From assembly GCA_009914755.4 (NCBI GenBank), contig CP086569.2:256001-320000 (forward strand): DNA of 64,000 bases. Reading direction: 5' to 3'. The DNA is from the human T2T-CHM13v2.0 reference genome, Homo sapiens. A program made the translations under genes and the position numbers. The notes under the pieces are model-generated. The model was not told the DNA's origin. It did not search any database and was given only the letters and a program-made list of their open reading frames with translations. This document shows positions 33,341 through 60,025 of the stretch, piece after piece. The stretch's first letter is position 1. The number at the start of each line of letters is the position of its first letter.

Positions 33341-33584
33341 CGCAGCCAGCAACCCTTTCAAGCAGAAGGATTTGTTGGTATTTACTGAATTCACCTTGTT
33401 GTGGTAGCATATCATCTACATAATACCAGAATATTGTCATCCCTCAAAAACAGAGCCAGGAGAAGAACTGCCCATTTTCCCTCCCCATTCCCAGGCAACT
33501 CAAAATCTTCCTTCTGTCTCTATGGGTTTGCCTGTTCTACACATTTCGTATATGATGGGAATAGGCTTTTTTTTTTTTTTTTTT

Positions 33585-34593
<1,009 letters not shown>

Positions 34594-35284: not shown

Positions 35285-35685
<401 letters not shown>

Positions 35686-35939
35686 TTATTTTTAGTACAG
35701 ATGAGGCTTTTCTCTGTTGCCCAGGCTGAAGTGCAGTGACGTGATCAGGGTCCTTGCATTTTTTGTTTTGAGACAGGGTCTTGCTCTGTCGCTCAGGATG
35801 GACTGCAGGGATGTGATCCCAGCTCAGTGCAGCCTCAGCCTCCTGGGCTCAAGCCATACTCCTGCCTCAGCCTCCTGAGTAGCTGGACTACAGGTGTGTG
35901 CCAGTATGCCTGGCTGTTTTTTTCTAAATGATTTTTTTT

Positions 35940-37180
35940 GGTAGAGATGGGGTCTCACTATGTCTCCCAGGCTGAAGCTCTGTGGTGTGATCATAGCTCA
36001 CTGCAGCCTCGAACTCCTGAGCTCAACTGATCCTCCCACCTCAGCCTCCTGAAGTGCTGGGATTGGGGGGGTGAGCCACTGCACTCAGCCAACAGATAGA
36101 GATGGGGTCTCGCTATGTCTCCCAGGCTGAAGCTCTGTGGTGTCATCATAGCTCACTGTAGCCTCGAACTCCTGGGCTCAACTGATCCTCCCACCTCAGC
36201 CTCCTGAAGTGCTGGGATTAGGGGGGTGAGCCACTGCACTCAGCCAACAGATAGAGATGGGGTCTCGCTATGTCTCCCAGGCTGAAGCTCTGTGGTGTCA
36301 TCATAGCTCACTGTAGCCTCGAACTCCTGGGCTCAACTGATCCTCCCACCTCAGCCTCCTGAAGTGCTGGGATTAGGGGGGTGAGCCACTGCACTCAGCC
36401 AACAGATAGAGATGGGGTCTCGCTATGTCTCCCAGGCTGAAGCTCTGTGGTGTCATCATAGCTCACTGCAGCCTCGAACTCCTGAGCTCAACTGATCCTC
36501 CCACCTCAGCCTCCTGAAGTGCTGGGATTAGGGGGGTGAGCCACTGCACTCAGCCAACAGATAGAGATGGGGTCTCGCTATGTCTCCCAGGCTGAAGCTC
36601 TGTGGTGTCATCATAGCTCACTGCAGCCTCGAACTCCTGAGCTCAACTGATCCTCCCACCTCAGCCTCCTGAAGTGCTGGGATTACGGGTGTGAGCCACT
36701 GCACTCAGCCAACAGATAGAGATGGGGTCTCGCTATGTCTCCCAGGCTGAAGCTCTGTGGTGTCATCATAGCTCACTGCAGCCTCGAACTCCTGAGCTCA
36801 ACTGATCCTCCCACCTCAGCCTCCTGAAGTGCTGGGATTACGGGTGTGAGCCACTGCACTCAGCCAACAGATAGAGATGGGGTCTCGCTATGTCTCCCAG
36901 GCTGAAGCTCTGTGGTGTCATCATAGCTCACTGCAGCCTCGAACTCCTGAGCTCAACTGATCCTCCCACCTCAGCCTCCTGAAGTGCTGGGATTAGGGGG
37001 GTGAGCCACTGCACTCAGCCAACAGATAGAGATGGGGTCTCGCTATGTCTCCCAGGCTGAAGCTCTGTGGTGTCATCATAGCTCACTGCAGCCTCGAACT
37101 CCTGGGCTCAACTGATCCTCCCGCCTCAGACTCCTGAAGTGCTGGGATTAGGGGGGTGAGCCACTGCACTCAGCCAACAC
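35940..37180 (-). repeat. Tandem array of 8 near-identical copies of a 155-bp Alu-derived chimeric monomer. The monomer is the start of the antisense right arm fused, across the shared gatcctcccacctcagcctcc region, to the end of the antisense left arm.
   Basis: Unit agatagagatggggtctcgctatgtctcccaggctgaagctctgtggtgtcatcatagctcactgcagcctcgaactcctgagctcaactgatcctcccacctcagcctcctgaagtgctgggattaggggggtgagccactgcactcagccaacag. cagccaacag recurs at 36084, 36241 and 36396, then at 155-bp steps to 37171. Copies differ at only a few positions. Confidence 0.95.
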
Positions 37181-37321
37181 ATCTGTAAATATGCCTAAGG
37201 CATCTATACCGTAGTAGGTTTGCTACAAGGATCAAGCAAGATAGTGTTCTGGAAATACAAGCCTCACCCTTACGAAGCTGTTTCAGCAGGTGTAACAAAT
37301 GGCCGTTCACAGAGTGGCTCA

Positions 37322-37990
<669 letters not shown>

Positions 37991-38616: not shown

Positions 38617-38915
38617 CACAGAGAATCCTCTAGCCCCAAATGTCAGCAGAGCTGAGGCTGAGAGACACTGACTGAGGGACTCTATCTATCATCTGTCAAT
38701 CAATCAATCAATCATCTATCTGTCTATCCATTATCTATCTATTTATCCACCTATCATCTATCTATCTATCATCTATCTCTCTCTCATCCGTCCATCCATC
38801 GTCTATTCTATCTGTCATCTATGTATCTATCCATCTAGTCATCCATCTATCTATCCTGTGTGTATTTATCCATTCTATGTATCTATCTATGTATCTATCT
38901 ATGTATCTATCTATG

Positions 38916-38960
<45 letters not shown>

Positions 38961-39620
38961 GTCATCTATGTATCTATCCATCTATTCATCCATCTATCCT
39001 GTATGTATTTGTCCATCCATCCATCCATCTATTCTATCATCTATCTTCATCTATGTATCTATCCATCTATTCATCCATCTATCCTGCATGTATTTATCTA
39101 TCCATCATCCATCTATTCTATCATCTATCATCTATGTATCTATCCATCTATTCATCCATCTATCCTGCATGTATTTATCTATCCATCCATCCATCTATTC
39201 TATCATCTATCTATCATCTATGTATCTATCCACCTATTCATCCATCTATCTTGTATGTATTCATCCATCCATCCATCTATTCTATTATCTATCTATCATC
39301 TATTCATCCATCTATCTATCCTGCATGTATTTATCTATCCATCCATCCATCCATCTATTCTATCATCTATCTGTCTTCTATGTATCTATCCATCTATTCA
39401 TCCATCTTGTATGTATTTATCCATCCATGCATCTACTCAACCATCCCTCCTCTATTTATCATCTCTATCATCTGTAAGTCAATCAGTTTATCCATCATCT
39501 ATCAATCACCCACATCTATCTTTATTATCTATCACCTGTCTATTTATCTATCTATCCTGTATGTATTTATCCATCCATCCATCCCTCCATCCATCCATTC
39601 CCTGTCTATCTCTATCATAT
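38617..39620 (+). repeat. Module copy 1: junction (38617-38682), then a (TCTA/TCCA/TCAT)n GATA-type array (38683-39620, about 940 bp)
   Basis: cacagagaatcctctagccccaaatgtcagcagagctgaggctgagagacactgactgagggactctatctatcatctgtcaatcaatcaatcaatc, then hundreds of tcta/tcca/tcat tetramers. Confidence 0.9.
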
Positions 39621-42360: not shown

Positions 42361-43020
42361 CACAGAGAATCCTCCAGCCCCAAATGTCAGCAGAGGTGAG
42401 GCTGAGAGACACTATCTGAGGGACTCTATCTATCATCTGTCAATCAATCAATCCATCTCTCAATCTATTATCTATCTATCTATCTATCTACCCACCTATC
42501 ATCTATCATCTATCTATGTATCTATGTATCTATCTACCTATCATCTATCTATCTATCATCTATCTATGTATCTATCTATCTATCTATTATCTATCTATCC
42601 ACCTATCATCTATCTATAATCTCTCTCTCTCCCAATCATCCATCTATCCATCCATCCATCCATCTATCCATGTATCCATTATCTATCATACATCTATCTA
42701 TTCATCCATCCATCATCTATCATCTCTATCATCTATAAATCAATTTATCCATCATCTGTCATTCATCCATCCATCACCCATCTTTATTATCTATCATCTA
42801 TCTATCCATCTATCATTCATCTATCATCTACCCATCCATTACCTATCTATCTCTATCATATATAAATCAATCATCTATCATCCACCAATCTACCTATTTA
42901 TCTATATCTGTCTATCTACCTTTATCTATTATCTATCATCAATCTTTATTATCTATCATCTATCTACAGATCTATTTATTGACCCATTATCTATCTATTA
43001 TCTATCTACCTATCTAATCT
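42361..43020 (+). repeat. Module copy 2: junction (42361-42425), then a GATA-type (TCTA/TCAT/TCCA)n array (42426-43020)
   Basis: cacagagaatcctccagccccaaatgtcagcagaggtgaggctgagagacactatctgagggactctatctatcatctgtcaatcaatcaatc is near-identical to 38617-38700. Confidence 0.9.
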
Positions 43021-43149
43021 GTGCTTTTCAGCTGCTGCCGATTGTCTCCTCTGAGGACACTTTGTCAGTCTCTGGGGACACTTTTGGTTGTCTGGATTGT
43101 GGAGTGAGGGTGCTCCTGGATTGGGAGTGAGGGTGCTTCTGGTCGCTGG

Positions 43150-44820
43150 TGGGTGAAGCCCAGGGACACTGCTCAACACCCTACAGTGCACAGATCAGCC
43201 CCACCAGAGAGAATCGTCCAGTCCCATGTGTCAGAAGTACCAGGGCTGAAAGACACTGCCTGAGGCTGAGACAATCTCTGTTTGTCCATCTATCACCTAT
43301 CAGTGATCTATCAGTCAATTATCTACCTATTAACTGTCTATATCAATTATCTGTCATACCTATCAATCAGCTATCAATCATTAATCATCTGTCTATATCA
43401 ATTATCCATCATACCTATCAATCAGCTATCATCAATCATCTATCTATACTAATTATCCATCATACATATCAATCAACTAACAATCATCAATCATCAAGCA
43501 TCTATATCAATTATCCATCAAACCTATCAATCATATATCATCAATCATCTATCTGTGTGAATTATCCATCATACCTATCAATCAGCTATCAATCGTCAAT
43601 CATATATATCAATTATCCATCATACCTATCAACCATCTATCAATCATCAATCATCTATATCAATTATCTGTCATACCTATTAATCATCAATCATCTATAT
43701 CAATTATCCATCATACTTATCAATCAACCATCTATCTATATGAATTATCCATCATATCTATCAATCAACTACCTATCATCAATCTATATCAATTATCCAT
43801 CACACCTATCGATCAGCTATCTATCAATCATCAATCATCTATATCAATTATCCATCACACCTATCAATCAACTATTTGTCAATTATCAATCATCTATATC
43901 AATTATGCATCATACCTATTAACTATCATCAATCATCTATCTATATGAATTATCCATCATACCTATCAATCAACTACCTATCAATCTATATCAATTATCC
44001 ATCACACCTATCAATCAACTATTTATCAATTATCAATCATCTATATCAATTATGCATCATACCTATCAACTATCTATCATCAATCATCTATATCAATTAT
44101 CCATCATACCTATCAATCAGCTATCAATCGTCAATCATATATATCAATTATCCATCATACCTATCAACCATCTATCAATCATCAATCATCTATCTATATC
44201 AATTATCTGTCATACCTATTAATCATCAATCATCTATATCAATTATCCATCATACTTATCAATCAACCATCTATCTATATGAATTATCCATCATATCTAT
44301 CAATCAACTACCTATCATCAATCTATATCAATTATCCGTCACACCTATCGATCAGCTATCTATCAATCATCAATCATCTATATCAATTATCCATCACACC
44401 TATCAATCAACTATTTGTCAATTATCAATCATCTATATCAATTATGCATCATACCTATCAACTATCATCAATCATCTATCTATATGAATTATCCATCATA
44501 CCTATCAATCAACTACCTATCAATCTATATCAATTATCCATCACACCTATCAATCAACTATTTATCAATTATCAATCATCTATTTATATCAATTATGCAT
44601 CATACCTATCAACTATCTATCATCAATCATCTATATCAATTATCCATCATACCTATCAATCAGCTATCAATCATCAATCCTTGATCTATATCATTTATGC
44701 ATCAATCATCAATCATCTGTATCAATTATCAATCATCTATTTACCTATCAAATCAACAATCTATCATCTTTCATCATATCTATCAATTGTCCATCAGTCA
44801 GTTATCTACCTGTCTATTCA
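43150..44820 (+). repeat. Module copy 3 (most diverged): pre-junction (43150-43202), junction (43203-43270), then a TATCAAT-rich array (43275-44820) with about 55-bp units in a higher-order repeat of about 540 bp (about 2.8 copies)
   Basis: ctcaacaccctacagtgcacagatcagccccaccagagagaatcgtccagtcccatgtgtcagaagtaccagggctgaaagacactgcctgaggctgagac. The array unit is tatatcaattatccatcatacctatcaatca.ctatcaatcatcaatcatc. The block ctatcaatcagctatcaatcgtcaatcatatatatcaattatccatcatacctatcaaccatctatcaatcatcaatcatc recurs at about 43565 and about 44105. Confidence 0.9.
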
Positions 44821-48339: not shown

Positions 48340-50145
48340 TGTCCGCGTGTGTGTGTGCACGTGTGTCCACATGTGTGTGTGGTGTCTGCGTGCCTCTGTG
48401 TGTGTCCGTGTGTGCGCACGCGCCCGTGTGTGTGCATCTGTGTGTGGCGTCAGCATGTGTCTATGTGTGTCCATGTGTGTATGTATGTGTGCATGCATGC
48501 ACCTGTATGTGTGTCTGTGTGCATGCATGTGAGTGTATGTGTGTGTGTCTGAGTGTGAGCGTGCCTATGCACGTGTGTGTGTGCATGTTTCTGTGTGTGC
48601 ATACGCCCATATGTGTGTCTGTGTGCATGCGTGTGAGTGTGTGTGTATGTTAGTGTGAGGGTGGACGTGTGCCTATGCACCTATGTGTGTATGTGTTTCT
48701 GCATGTCTGTGCATGCATGCACCTGTATGCGTGTCTGAGTGCATGCGTGGGAGTGTATGTGCGTGTCTCAGTGTGGGCATGCCTATGCACATATGTGTGC
48801 ACATGTTTCTGTGTGCATATGCTTGCATGTGTGTGTGCATGCATGTGAGTGGATGTGTGTGTGAGTGTGGGCATGCCTATACACGTGTGTGTGTGCATGT
48901 TTCTGTGTGTCTGTATACGCCTGTGTCTTGAGTGTGTGAATGTGCCTATGGACATGTGTGTACATGTTTCTGCATGTCTGTGCATGCATATGCCTGTGTG
49001 TCTGTGTGCATGCGTGTGAGTGTGTGTGTATGTTAGTGTGTGGGTGGACGTGTGCCTATGCACCTATGTGTGTATGTGTTTCTGCATGTCTGTGCATGCA
49101 TGCACCTGTATGCGTGTCTGAGTGCATGCGTGGGAGTATGCGTGTCTCAGTGTGGGCATGCCTATGCACATATGTGTGCACATGTTTCTGTGTGCATATG
49201 CTTGCATGTGTGTGTGCATGCATGTGAGTGGATGTGTGTGTGAGTGTGGGCATGCCTATGCACGTGTGTGTGTGCATGTTTCTGTGTGTCTGTGTATACG
49301 CCTGTGTCTTGAGTGTGTGAATGTGCCTATGGACATGTGTGTACATGTTTCTGCATGTCTGTGCATGCATATGCCTGTGTGTCTCTGTGTGCATGCGTGT
49401 GAGTGTGTGTGTGTGTTAGTGTGAGGGTGGACGTGTGCCTATGCACCTATGTGTGTATGTGTTTCTGCATGTCTGTGCATGCATGCACCTGTATGCGTGT
49501 CTGAGTGCATGCGTGGGAGTGTATGTGCGTGTCTCAGTGTGGACATGCCTATGCACATATGTGTGCACATGTTTCTGTGTGCATATGCTTGCATGTGTGT
49601 GTGCGTGCATGTGAGTGGATGTGTGTGTGTGGGCATGCCTATGCACGTGTGTGTGTGCATGTTTCTGTGTGTCTGTATACGCCTGTGTCTTGAGTGTGTG
49701 AATGTGCCTATGGACATGTGTGTACATGTTTCTGCATGTCTGTGCATGCATATGCCTGTGTGTCTCTGTGTGTATGCGTGTGAGTGGCATTCATGTGTGT
49801 GTATTTGCGTGAGGTGGGCATGCCTATGCACGTATATGTGTACATGTTTCTGTATGTCTGTGCATGCATATGCCTGTATATGTGTCTGTGTGCACATGTG
49901 TTCATATATGTGTGTCTGTGTGAGTGTACATATGCCTATGTACGTACGTGTGTACGTTTCTGTGTATCTGTGTGTCTGTGCGTGCATCTGCCTGTATATG
50001 TGTCTGTGTGTGTGCAAATGTGTCTGTATGTGTGTGTCTGTGTGAATGTGGGTGTGCCTTGTACGTATGTGTGTACATGTTTCTGTGTATCTGTGTACCT
50101 GTGTGTGCATTCGCCTGCATGTCTGTGTGTGTGCATGCATGTCAG
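48340..50145. repeat. TG-rich complex tandem repeat (GTGTGCATGC-type) organised as a higher-order repeat of about 382 bp, about 4.7 copies
   Basis: gggtggacgtgtgcctatgcacctatgtgtgtatgtgtttctgcatgtctgtgcatgcatgcacctgtatgcgtgtctgagtgcatgcgtgggagt recurs at about 48660, about 49042 and about 49424. Track ORFs such as MCVCVSACLCMHAPVCVSECMRGS... are its translations. Confidence 0.9.
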
Positions 50146-56965: not shown

Positions 56966-57650
<685 letters not shown>

Positions 57651-57694
57651 TGTTTTTGAGACAAGGTCTGAAATAACAACTATCTGTAAAAAAA

Positions 57695-59384: not shown

Positions 59385-60025
59385 TAGTTCAACCATTGTG
59401 GAAGACAGCGTGGCGATTCCTCAAGGATGTAGAACTAGAAATACCGTTTGACCCAGCCATCCCGTTACTGGGTATATACCCAAAGGATTATAAATCACTC
59501 TACCATAAAGACACATGCACACGTATGTTTATTGAGGCACTGTTCACAACAGCAAAGACTTGGAACCAACCCAAATGCCCATCAATGATAGACTGGATAC
59601 AGAGAATGTGGCACACAGACACCATGGAATACTATGCAGCCACGAAAAAGGATGGGTTCATGTCCTTTGCAGGGACATGGATGAAGCTGGAAACCATCAT
59701 TCTCAGCAAACTCGCACAGGAACAGAAAACCACACACCGCATGTTCTCACTCCTAAGTGGGAGCTGAACGATGAGAACACAGGGACGCAGGGAGGGGAAC
59801 ATCACACACCGGGGCCTGTCAGTGGGTTGCGGGCCAAGGAGTGGGATTGCATTAGGATGCTATCCTAATGCTAACAAATATCTAATCCATCCAGGGCTTA
59901 ACACCTAGATGACGGGTTAATGGGTGCAGCAAACCACCATGAAACATGCACACCTGCGTAACAAGCCTGCACATTCTGCACGTGTATCCCAGAACTTTAA
60001 GATAAAATGTAAAAAAAAAAAGTAA
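59385..60025 (+). mobile_element. L1 3'-end fragment (ORF2 C-terminus plus 3'UTR), sense, with poly-A tail at 60013-60024
   Basis: agttcaaccattgtggaagacagcgtggcgattcctcaaggatgtagaactagaaataccgtttgacccagccatcccgttactgggtatatacccaaaggattataaatcac... Track ORF 59396..59767 gives the ORF2p C-terminal peptides ...TAKTWNQPKCPSMIDWIQRMWHTDTMEYYAATKKDGFMSFAGTWMKLETIILSKLAQEQKTTHRMFSLLSGS. Confidence 0.9.

What the first reader, a model, noticed from the sequence alone, without database searches (positions are those of the whole stretch)
35940..37180. Eight near-identical tandem copies of a 155-bp chimeric Alu-derived monomer
Alu sequence is normally dispersed, not tandem. Here a 155-bp unit is reiterated 8 times head to tail with only a handful of differences (gattgggggggtgag, gattaggggggtgag and gattacgggtgtgag). 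The unit is the start of the antisense right arm joined to the end of the left arm through the shared gatcctcccacctcagcctcc segment. Such similarity implies a very recent expansion or ongoing homogenisation. This is likely a polymorphic Alu-derived VNTR.
Basis: seen in the sequence. Interest (0 to 1): 0.6.

Follow-up and report, generated by a model that had tools for sequence, protein, structure and literature searches.

The report
Alu-arm-derived 155-bp tandem array
One arm of an old Alu element, plus six bases of its flank, has been copied head to tail eight times on the spot; this is an ordinary transposon-derived minisatellite of a kind already catalogued by the thousand in the human genome.

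Summary
Window 35942-37181 holds exactly eight head-to-tail copies of a 155-bp unit (TRF score 2378, 98% matches, no indels). Adjacent copies are 97-100% identical, against 82±5% between unrelated Alu arms in the same window.

Unit 1 sits in the left-arm slot of a complete antisense AluJ-like element, after its right arm (35770-35916) and A-rich linker. The unit is a left arm at both ends with the right-arm-type 31-bp segment in the middle, followed by 6 bp that match the unique 5' flank at 5 of 6 positions.

There are no A-tails or target-site duplications between units, so the array grew in place and not by retrotransposition. The unit is about 16% diverged from the AluJ consensus, while the copies differ by only 1.4-3.9%. 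The amplification is therefore late. Variant sites are tree-incompatible, which points to exchange between units.

The window is 21% minisatellite and holds three more Alus with multiplied arms. [quoted passage not shown] Copy-number polymorphism could not be tested with the tools available. No function is indicated, and interest is low.

The parts
35759..35916 (-). A-tail (35759-35769, seen as T-run on + strand) and right arm (35770-35916) of the host AluJ-like element
   Evidence: The arm shows 24 mismatches and 3 indels over 150 bp against the AluJo right arm. It gives an RF00017 hit of 59.2 bits at 35768-35914 on the - strand.
35917..35940 (-). A-rich middle linker of the host Alu (tttttttctaaatgattttttttg on + strand), about 8 bp longer than the consensus linker
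   Evidence: It aligns to the AluJo linker between the right arm and unit 1. The sequence was read.
35942..36096 (-). Unit 1 (edge copy), occupying the left-arm slot of the host Alu. It has 3 private differences (A16, G48, G124); G48 is the ancestral Alu state.
36097..36406 (-). Units 2 and 3, identical to each other (T63, G79)
36407..36561 (-). Unit 4, identical to the array consensus and to unit 7
36562..36871 (-). Units 5 and 6, identical to each other. They carry ACGGGTG (C125, T129), which lies between the Alu consensus ACAGGCG and the AGGGGGG of the other units.
   Evidence: These are the highest RF00017 scores among the units (59.1 bits).
36872..37026 (-). Unit 7, identical to the consensus and to unit 4
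37027..37181 (-). Unit 8 (edge copy). The Alu 5' end is at 37175, and 37176-37181 (AACACA) is the original unique flank that the inter-unit spacer AACAGA copies. It retains the ancestral CpG at position 97 and G79.
37321..37643 (+). Neighbouring AluJ in the opposite orientation. This is context and not part of the array. It forms a weak inverted repeat with the last units.
   Evidence: AluJo 1-286, 79%. (73-78% complementary, spacers of 312 nt or more).

Best explanation
This is a transposon-derived minisatellite that arose in place.

An old antisense AluJ-like dimer inserted here. Its left arm acquired the right-arm-type 31-bp segment. That could have happened by unequal exchange between the two homologous arms followed by a second exchange, or by a short gene-conversion patch.

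Long after most of its CpGs had decayed, a 155-bp segment was duplicated in tandem. This segment is the whole mosaic left arm plus 6 bp of the flank next to the Alu 5' end. Misaligned exchange between copies then took the array to eight copies and kept the interior copies nearly identical. Candidate processes are unequal sister-chromatid or homologue exchange, replication slippage and gene conversion. The latest events look like single-unit gains (units 2=3 and 5=6).

It most likely has no function of its own. It is a by-product of a region prone to unequal exchange, and it is predicted to vary in copy number between individuals and between apes.

Shown here: periodicity, anatomy, growth in place, late timing and reticulate variant pattern.

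Inferred: the molecular mechanism of the first duplication, unequal exchange as the driver, neutrality and polymorphism.
For: Array: eight exact 155-bp units, 98% matches, no indels.

Anatomy:
- The AluJo consensus aligns 1-289 over 35763-36090, with one 31-bp insertion exactly at the right-arm insert site.
- The unit's 5' block is left-type at 8 of 10 diagnostic sites. Its 3' end (T,T,C) matches 15/26 left arms and 0/26 right arms. None of the 26 left arms carries the 31-bp segment.
- The L-R-L model fits best among the full-length models (24 mismatches, against 26, 30 and 32).

Growth in place:
- The spacer AACAGA is identical at all 7 junctions and matches the unique flank AACACA at 5 of 6 positions.
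- There are no A-tails or target-site duplications between units.

Timing:
- The unit is 16.1% diverged from the AluJ-based consensus (10.1% excluding CpG transitions), similar to the host right arm at 24/150.
- The units differ from each other by 1.4% (interior), 2.0% (all) and 3.9% (edge against edge).
- CpG observed/expected is 0.18.

Exchange between units:
- The edge units are the most divergent and keep ancestral states (G48 in unit 1, G97 in unit 8).
- 5 of 10 pairs of polarised sites are tree-incompatible.

Local propensity:
- 21% of the window is in tandem arrays of period 7 or more.
- Three other Alus have multiplied arms: 3050-3603 (L x3), 33570-34580 (R x5) and 57011-57669 (R x3, with left/right hybrid arms). 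Their adjacent-arm identities are 0.87-0.93, against a background of 0.82.

Literature:
[quoted passage not shown] Expansion is by local duplication (PMC3389668).
- VNTRs with GC above 60% and units longer than 15 bp are 21-fold enriched in subtelomeres, and unequal crossover is invoked there (PMC7608644).
Against: - No flanking direct repeat explains the first duplication (0-1 nt shared), and the last unit is complete. Neither classical initiation model (slipped-strand mispairing, or short flanking direct repeats) is supported, so the first step stays unexplained. The same is true for 94% of such arrays in PMC3389668.
- The L-R-L reading rests on few diagnostic sites at the 3' end. One site there (GGGxGAC) is right-type.
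- The 31-bp segment of the unit shares no private changes with the host's own right arm, so the donor is unknown.
- Tree-incompatibility could partly reflect recurrent CpG mutation (site 97).
- Polymorphism, species distribution and lack of function were not tested.
Its S-type counterpart was reproduced by the window's own 26-copy consensus.
Confidence: 0.85

Rival explanations
1. One reading: the unit is a simple internal-deletion chimera. In antisense order it would be the right-arm start joined to the left-arm end, and in the sense orientation a left 5' half plus a right 3' half. It would have inserted as a monomer-sized Alu with its own short A-tail (the tttttttt at 35932-39) next to a 5'-truncated Alu, and then been amplified.
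For: It is only 2 mismatches worse than the L-R-L model (26 vs 24). The unit does contain the right-arm 31-bp segment and one right-type site just 3' of it. A run of 8 T precedes unit 1.
Against: The three best diagnostic sites at the sense 3' end are left-type (T,T,C in 15/26 left arms and 0/26 right arms). This includes the TCTCTAC ending that right arms lack. The sequence upstream of unit 1 aligns collinearly as linker plus a complete right arm of one dimeric Alu. No left arm of the supposed truncated neighbour lies downstream of the array.
Confidence: 0.1
2. The array is an assembly artefact: a repeat that the assembler over-expanded or collapsed wrongly.
For: Nothing positive. Perfectly identical neighbouring units (2=3, 5=6) are what an over-expansion would also produce.
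Against: The array has structured internal variation. There are four interior and edge haplotypes, the edges are distinct and keep ancestral Alu states, and the period is exact with no indels. That is typical of real minisatellites. The neighbourhood holds many other cleanly resolved arrays.
Confidence: 0.03
3. The array is a functional element, for example a cluster of Pol III-transcribed genes derived from Alu monomers (as with snaR or BC200), or a cis-regulatory VNTR under selection.
For: On the - strand each unit spans the whole Alu-domain part of the SRP RNA model (RF00017, 40.8-59.1 bits). It keeps a left-arm-type A-box region (TGGCTCAC) and a GTTCGAGGC box; the promoter reading comes from my own knowledge and was not tested. 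The window resembles subtelomeric VNTR clusters, where VNTR length has been associated with impaired transcription (PMC7608644).
Against: All RF00017 scores are below the gathering score of 70 and no better than the ordinary host right arm (59.2 bits). There is no BC200 or snaR match at E<=1 and no Rfam family at gathering score anywhere in the window. CpG observed/expected is 0.18, so it is not a CpG island. There is no ORF of 60 aa or more. The units lack a T4 terminator between them.
Confidence: 0.04

Closest known systems
Alu-derived minisatellites / TE-derived tandem repeats (Jurka & Gentles 2006, Gene 365:21, cited in PMC3389668; Ahmed & Liang 2012, PMC3389668)
   Same: Part of an Alu is repeated head to tail in place. 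The repeated part lies next to the 5' end of an otherwise complete Alu, which matches the 136-case pattern in PMC3389668. Units are best matched to one another, and expansion is by local duplication long after insertion. AluJ-derived arrays tend to have more units.
   Different: The unit is long (155 bp, against a mean of 88.6 bp for that pattern). The copy number is high (8, against a mean of 2.42 for AluJ-derived arrays; 8.11% of the arrays from older AluS subfamilies exceed 3 units). The unit is a whole arm plus 6 bp of flank, and that arm is an L-R-L mosaic. No short flanking direct repeats are present, unlike the Jurka & Gentles initiation model.
Subtelomeric GC-rich VNTR clusters (Linthorst et al. 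2020, PMC7608644; Course et al. 2021, PMC8327921)
   Same: The unit is long (over 15 bp) and moderately GC-rich (57%). It sits among many other minisatellites, which cover 21% of the window. Duplications and deletions anywhere in the array, attributed to unequal exchange, are the proposed dynamics.
   Different: The chromosomal position of this window is unknown. GC is just below the 60% class that shows the 21-fold enrichment. Those catalogues mostly exclude or ignore retrotransposon-derived arrays.
Alus with multiplied arms produced by unequal exchange between the homologous left and right arms or between the two A-rich tracts (examples in this window: 57011-57669, 33570-34580, 3050-3603)
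   Same: The substrate is the same (a dimeric Alu) and so is the neighbourhood. The hybrid left/right arms at 57011-57669 show the kind of exchange that can place the 31-bp segment behind a left-type arm start.
   Different: Those arrays have periods of 132-183 bp that include the linker, only 3-5 copies and 87-93% identity. In the 155-bp array the unit excludes the linker and includes flank, so its first duplication was not a simple arm-to-arm exchange.
SVA / LAVA / PVA / FVA composite retrotransposons (Alu-like region plus VNTR)
   Same: Alu-derived sequence is associated with a VNTR in hominoid genomes.
   Different: In those elements the VNTR unit is not an Alu arm and the element is mobile. 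Here there is no CCCTCT hexamer array and no composite structure.
snaR gene arrays and BC200 (RNA genes derived from free left Alu monomers; PMC3337139, PMC3045588)
   Same: They derive from a left Alu monomer, and snaR genes sit in tandem arrays.
   Different: The Rfam scan lists no match other than RF00017 (SRP RNA), mir-3135, mir-1268 and one chance hit at E<=1, so nothing resembling snaR or BC200. The unit here is a plain decayed Alu arm.

Membership tests
TE-derived tandem repeat / Alu-derived minisatellite (criteria of Ahmed & Liang 2012) | Tandem array with unit of 20 bp or more, at least 2 copies, GC of 40% or more, and similarity among units of 95% or more | tested here: met
   Period 155, 8.0 copies, 98% matches. 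GC is 56.7%.
TE-derived tandem repeat / Alu-derived minisatellite (criteria of Ahmed & Liang 2012) | Unit sequence derived from a transposable element | tested here: met
   The unit aligns to the AluJo arms at 84% identity. Every unit gives an RF00017 (7SL/Alu domain) hit at E of 1e-8 to 1e-14.
TE-derived tandem repeat / Alu-derived minisatellite (criteria of Ahmed & Liang 2012) | Generated by local duplication and not by repeated insertion | tested here: met
   The 6-bp spacer is identical at all junctions and derived from the local flank. There are no A-tails or target-site duplications. All units share the same CpG decay.
Jurka & Gentles type initiation (short direct repeats flanking the duplicated segment) | Direct repeats of 5-20 bp at the array boundaries | tested here: not met
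   Shared boundary sequence is 0 nt on the left and 1 nt on the right.
Slipped-strand mispairing type initiation | Truncated terminal unit | tested here: not met
   There are 8.0 complete units.
VNTR in the strict sense | Copy number varies between individuals | not testable with these tools
   No human or primate assemblies are available. Exact-pattern scans of the metagenome, prokaryote-genome and viral collections gave 0 hits. Ten flanking ORFs are absent from the protein collection.
SVA-type composite retrotransposon | CCCTCT hexamer array 5' of an Alu-like region, a VNTR of short GC-rich units (about 35-50 bp, figure from memory), SINE-R and a poly-A tail | tested here: not met
   There is no (CCCTCT)3 in the window even with 2 mismatches allowed. 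The unit is 155 bp and is itself an Alu arm.
snaR / BC200 (Alu-monomer-derived RNA genes) | Match to the family covariance model | tested here: not met
   The scan of all 4,227 Rfam families over 35700-37700 at E<=1 returned only RF00017, mir-3135, mir-1268 and one chance hit. I assume snaR and BC200 models are in the library and did not check this separately.
Metazoan SRP RNA gene (RF00017) | Score at or above the gathering threshold of 70 bits, with the S domain present | tested here: not met
   Scores are 40.8-59.1 bits. The matches are about 148 nt for a 299-position model, so only the Alu domain is present, as in any Alu arm.

The most novel reading that the evidence does not exclude
The array could be the youngest product of a local hotspot of unequal exchange that repeatedly multiplies Alu arms. 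Four of roughly 65 Alus in this 64-kb window are affected, against a genome-wide figure that I read as about 0.2-0.4% in PMC3389668. It could also be a hominid- or human-specific, copy-number-polymorphic VNTR made of eight complete Alu-domain units, each roughly nucleosome-sized. Such an array might phase nucleosomes or modulate expression of a host gene in a subtelomeric VNTR cluster.
Probability: 0.1. Interest if true: 0.45.

Novelty: new member of a known kind. Interest (0 to 1): 0.2.

Why it matters
It matters little in itself. It is a clean, well-resolved example of how a dispersed repeat turns into a minisatellite. It is useful as a possible polymorphic marker and as a caution for read mapping and Alu annotation.

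The slightly more interesting point is regional. Four Alus with multiplied arms sit among dense minisatellites in one 64-kb window. This suggests that Alu arm number could serve as a simple read-out of local unequal-exchange activity. If the array proves to be polymorphic and lies inside a gene, it would be one more candidate for association studies of VNTR length with expression.

Tried and rejected
1. Finding the same locus elsewhere, to compare copy number:
- Exact scans used a junction/flank pattern, a unique right-flank 24-mer and a unit-specific 26-mer. They covered metagenome contigs, genome contigs and viral contigs, and all gave 0 hits. These collections evidently do not hold this primate locus.
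- Ten flanking ORFs were looked up exactly in the 15-billion-protein collection, and none is present. The look-up of encoding contigs was therefore not usable.

2. A fuzzy-regex arm annotation timed out. It was replaced by BLAST with arm-specific markers, which is noisy and was used only to pick out clusters for direct inspection.

3. Explanations considered and rejected:
- Independent Alu insertions: there are no A-tails or target-site duplications, and the spacer is identical throughout.
- SVA-type VNTR: no hexamer array.
- snaR/BC200-like gene array: no matches to those families.
- PRDM9 13-mer hotspot motif inside the units: none in the array.
- Strong inverted-repeat instability with the neighbouring opposite-strand AluJ: only 73-78% complementary, with spacers of 312 nt or more.
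- Higher-order repeat structure: TRF reports only the 155-bp period, and the variant pattern a,a,c,b,b,c is not a repeated block.
- Ectopic conversion as the source of the ACGGGTG variant in units 5-6: it shares the derived G126 with all other units, so it looks like an older haplotype of this array and not an import from another Alu.

4. The locus and species were not identified. No Rfam family reaches its gathering score in the window, and no convincing coding ORFs were seen.

Full report

Yes. Tandem Repeats Finder reports a single array at 35942-37179 with period 155, 8.0 copies, 98% matches, no indels and score 2378. Cutting the sequence at 155-bp steps from 35942 gives eight units that differ from their consensus at 0-4 positions. 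Only ten columns vary.

A unit-specific 26-mer occurs eight times in the window, always inside the array, and zero times in dinucleotide-preserving shuffles.

Adjacent units are 96.8-100% identical. Arms of unrelated Alus in the same window are 82% identical on average, with sd 5% and a maximum of 93%.

**2. Setting**

The window is primate DNA with 51% G+C. About 32% of it matches Alu consensus sequences, in roughly 65 elements. The consensus of 26 full-length copies taken from the window itself reproduces the S-type consensus.

The window is unusually rich in minisatellites. About 21% of it lies in tandem arrays with a period of 7 or more, not counting the Alu-arm arrays. This resembles the subtelomeric VNTR clusters described by Linthorst et al. 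(PMC7608644). The chromosomal position could not be established with the tools available.

**3. Anatomy of the unit**

The AluJo consensus aligns over its full length (1-289) to 35763-36090 on the minus strand. In + strand order the alignment runs as follows:
- A-tail and right arm at 35759-35916.
- An A-rich linker at 35917-35940.
- Unit 1, which occupies the left-arm slot.

The only large difference in that alignment is a 31-bp insertion in the left arm. It lies exactly where right arms carry their extra 31-bp segment, and it is homologous to that segment.

I scored the sites that distinguish the two arms against the window's own 26 full-length Alus:
- At the sense 5' end, the unit has the left-arm state at 8 of 10 diagnostic sites (GGCTCAC...TAATCCCAGCACTT).
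- At the sense 3' end, its joint state T,T,C (CATAG...TCTCTAC) is found in 15 of 26 left arms and in none of 26 right arms.
- None of the 26 left arms carries the 31-bp segment.

The unit is therefore a left arm at both ends with a right-arm-type patch in the middle. Counting mismatches against composite consensus models gave these results:

| Model | Mismatches |
|---|---|
| L-R-L mosaic | 24 |
| Right-5' plus insert plus left-3' | 30 |
| Pure right arm | 32 |
| Pure left arm | 18, plus a 31-bp gap |

The sequence-only margin between the first two models is small. The position of unit 1 behind the linker and the 3'-end diagnostic sites decide in favour of the mosaic.

The switch back from right-type to left-type lies somewhere in the segment shared by both arms.

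The 31-bp segment of the unit shares no private changes with the host's own right arm, so the donor is unknown.

A comparator sits in the same window. At 57011-57669 an antisense AluJ has three right arms, and the second and third begin left-type and continue with the right-type insert. That is the expected product of unequal exchange between the two homologous arms. One further exchange in the shared segment, or a short conversion tract, would give the mosaic seen here.

**4. Growth in place**

Each unit ends with the Alu 5' end (…cactcagcc) followed by the 6 bases AACAGA. After the eighth unit the unique flank reads AACACA and then tctgtaaatatgcc. The spacer is thus a copy of the local flank, matching at 5 of 6 positions.

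All seven junctions are identical. There are no A-tails or target-site duplications between units. This excludes repeated retrotransposition and points to local origin, as Ahmed & Liang found for Alu-derived arrays in general (PMC3389668).

The boundaries share only 0-1 nt and the last unit is complete. Neither the flanking-direct-repeat model nor the truncated-unit slippage model explains the first duplication. The same is true for 94% of TE-derived arrays in that study. [quoted passage not shown] The present array fits that pattern, with a longer unit.

**5. Timing and dynamics**

The unit consensus is 16.1% diverged from the AluJ-based mosaic consensus, or 10.1% without CpG transitions. The host right arm is similar, at 24 of 150 positions. 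All units share the same decayed CpGs, and CpG observed/expected is 0.18.

Divergence between units is much lower:

| Comparison | Mean pairwise divergence |
|---|---|
| Interior units | 1.4% |
| All units | 2.0% |
| The two edge units | 3.9% |

Amplification therefore came late in the life of the element. Per lineage this is roughly the last tenth of the element's age. That estimate is rough and is blurred by homogenisation.

The edge units are the most divergent and keep ancestral Alu states (G48 in unit 1; the CpG at position 97 and G79 in unit 8), as is usual for arrays that exchange mainly in the interior. The interior consists of the identical pairs 2=3 and 5=6, plus 4=7. This is most simply explained by recent single-unit gains.

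I polarised the variants with the Alu consensus. Five of ten pairs of informative sites are incompatible with any tree. This indicates exchange or conversion between units, although recurrent CpG mutation may contribute at site 97.

Units 5-6 carry ACGGGTG. This lies between the Alu consensus ACAGGCG and the AGGGGGG of the other six units, and it shares the derived G at position 126 with them. It therefore looks like an older haplotype of this array that has been largely overwritten, even at both edges.

**6. Function**

Nothing suggests a function:
- There is no ORF of 60 codons or more.
- No Rfam family reaches its gathering score anywhere in the window.
- In a permissive scan, every unit matches the Alu-domain part of the SRP RNA model on the minus strand at 40.8-59.1 bits. 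That is below the threshold of 70 and no better than the ordinary host right arm at 59.2 bits.
- That scan lists nothing resembling BC200 or snaR. The sub-threshold mir-3135 and mir-1268 hits appear on every Alu arm in the scanned stretch, not only in the array, which fits my recollection that these miRNA families are Alu-derived.
- The units contain no PRDM9-type 13-mer.
- There is no SVA hexamer array in the window.
- The opposite-strand AluJ at 37321-37643 forms only a weak inverted repeat with the last units (73-78% complementary, spacers of 312 nt or more).

**7. Regional pattern**

Three more Alus in the window have multiplied arms:
- 3050-3603: three left arms and one right arm.
- 33570-34580: five right arms and one left arm.
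- 57011-57669: three right arms and one left arm.

Their adjacent arms are 87-93% identical, above the 82% background. Ahmed & Liang count 2,663 Alu-derived tandem repeats genome-wide and give a relative abundance of 0.18-0.40, which I read as per cent of Alus. Four in about 65 Alus looks like a local excess. The criteria differ, however: only the 155-bp array meets their cut-off of 95% similarity. The 155-bp array is the youngest and largest product of what seems to be a locally recurrent process.

**8. Comparison with what is known, and verdict**

The array meets the operational definition of a TE-derived tandem repeat, or Alu-derived minisatellite, on every feature tested. It fails the tests for SVA-type elements, snaR/BC200-type genes and a true SRP RNA gene.

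Compared with catalogued Alu-derived arrays it sits at the high end for unit length and copy number. It has 8 units, against a mean of 2.42 for AluJ-derived arrays, and 8.11% of the arrays from older AluS subfamilies exceed 3 units. Its unit is an unusual L-R-L mosaic arm.

Whether the copy number is polymorphic or lineage-specific could not be tested. No human or primate assemblies were reachable.

The kind is known, so I score interest as low.

Noticed in passing
window 33570-34580 (- strand): An Alu with five consecutive right arms, each preceded by a T-run, followed by the linker and one left arm. TRF periods are 158-183 bp and adjacent arms are 91-93% identical. It is a second, older Alu-arm tandem array only about 1.4 kb upstream of the 155-bp array.
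   Followed up: partly
window 57011-57669 (- strand): An AluJ with three right arms plus linker (period 166, 3.1 copies, 88-93% identity) followed by one left arm. The second and third arms start left-type and continue with the right-type 31-bp segment, so they are left/right hybrid arms produced by unequal exchange.
   Followed up: partly
window 3050-3603 (+ strand): An Alu with three left arms plus linker (period 132, 3.1 copies, 87-89% identity) followed by one right arm. This is the reciprocal kind of arm multiplication.
   Followed up: partly
window 4481-5684 (- strand): Four complete Alus lie head to tail with period 305 and 82-88% identity. This could be an old tandem duplication of a whole Alu or serial insertion into A-tails; the two were not distinguished.
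   Followed up: no
window 7450-8296; 10275-11116; 15399-19284; 48612-49894; 38681-39473; 42425-44796; 25586-26632: Minisatellites are very dense, covering about 21% of the window. Examples are 65 bp x13 at 97%, 20 bp x42, 41/80 bp x93 (3.9 kb, open for about 1000 codons in three frames of the - strand), 383 bp x3.3 at 94%, TCTA-rich blocks and CA-rich blocks. The pattern is subtelomere-like, but the locus was not identified.
   Followed up: partly
window-wide (e.g. 2263-2297, 5856, 6600, 28988, 44922, 45808): The PRDM9-type 13-mer CCNCCNTNNCCNC occurs 12 times, against 3.9 expected (0 of 100 shuffles reach 12). Several matches lie in positions annotated as Alu, and none lies in the 155-bp array.
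   Followed up: no
window 36562-36871 (units 5-6), unit positions 125 and 129: These units carry two linked differences 4 bp apart (ACGGGTG against AGGGGGG). The rarer form is closer to the Alu consensus, yet both edge units carry the derived form. Either the derived form was spread to the edges by conversion, or it arose as one multi-nucleotide event early on.
   Followed up: partly
window 35690-35747 (- strand): A short 5'-truncated Alu 3' fragment with an A-rich tail lies between an AluY (35374-35678) and the host AluJ. It shares the CTCCAG to CTTCAG change with the array unit, which may be coincidence.
   Followed up: no
window 20581-21321 (+) and 59396-59767 (+): These ORFs contain the motif IPLLGIYPKDYKS, which I recall as typical of the C-terminal part of L1 ORF2. 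They are probably L1 fragments.
   Followed up: no
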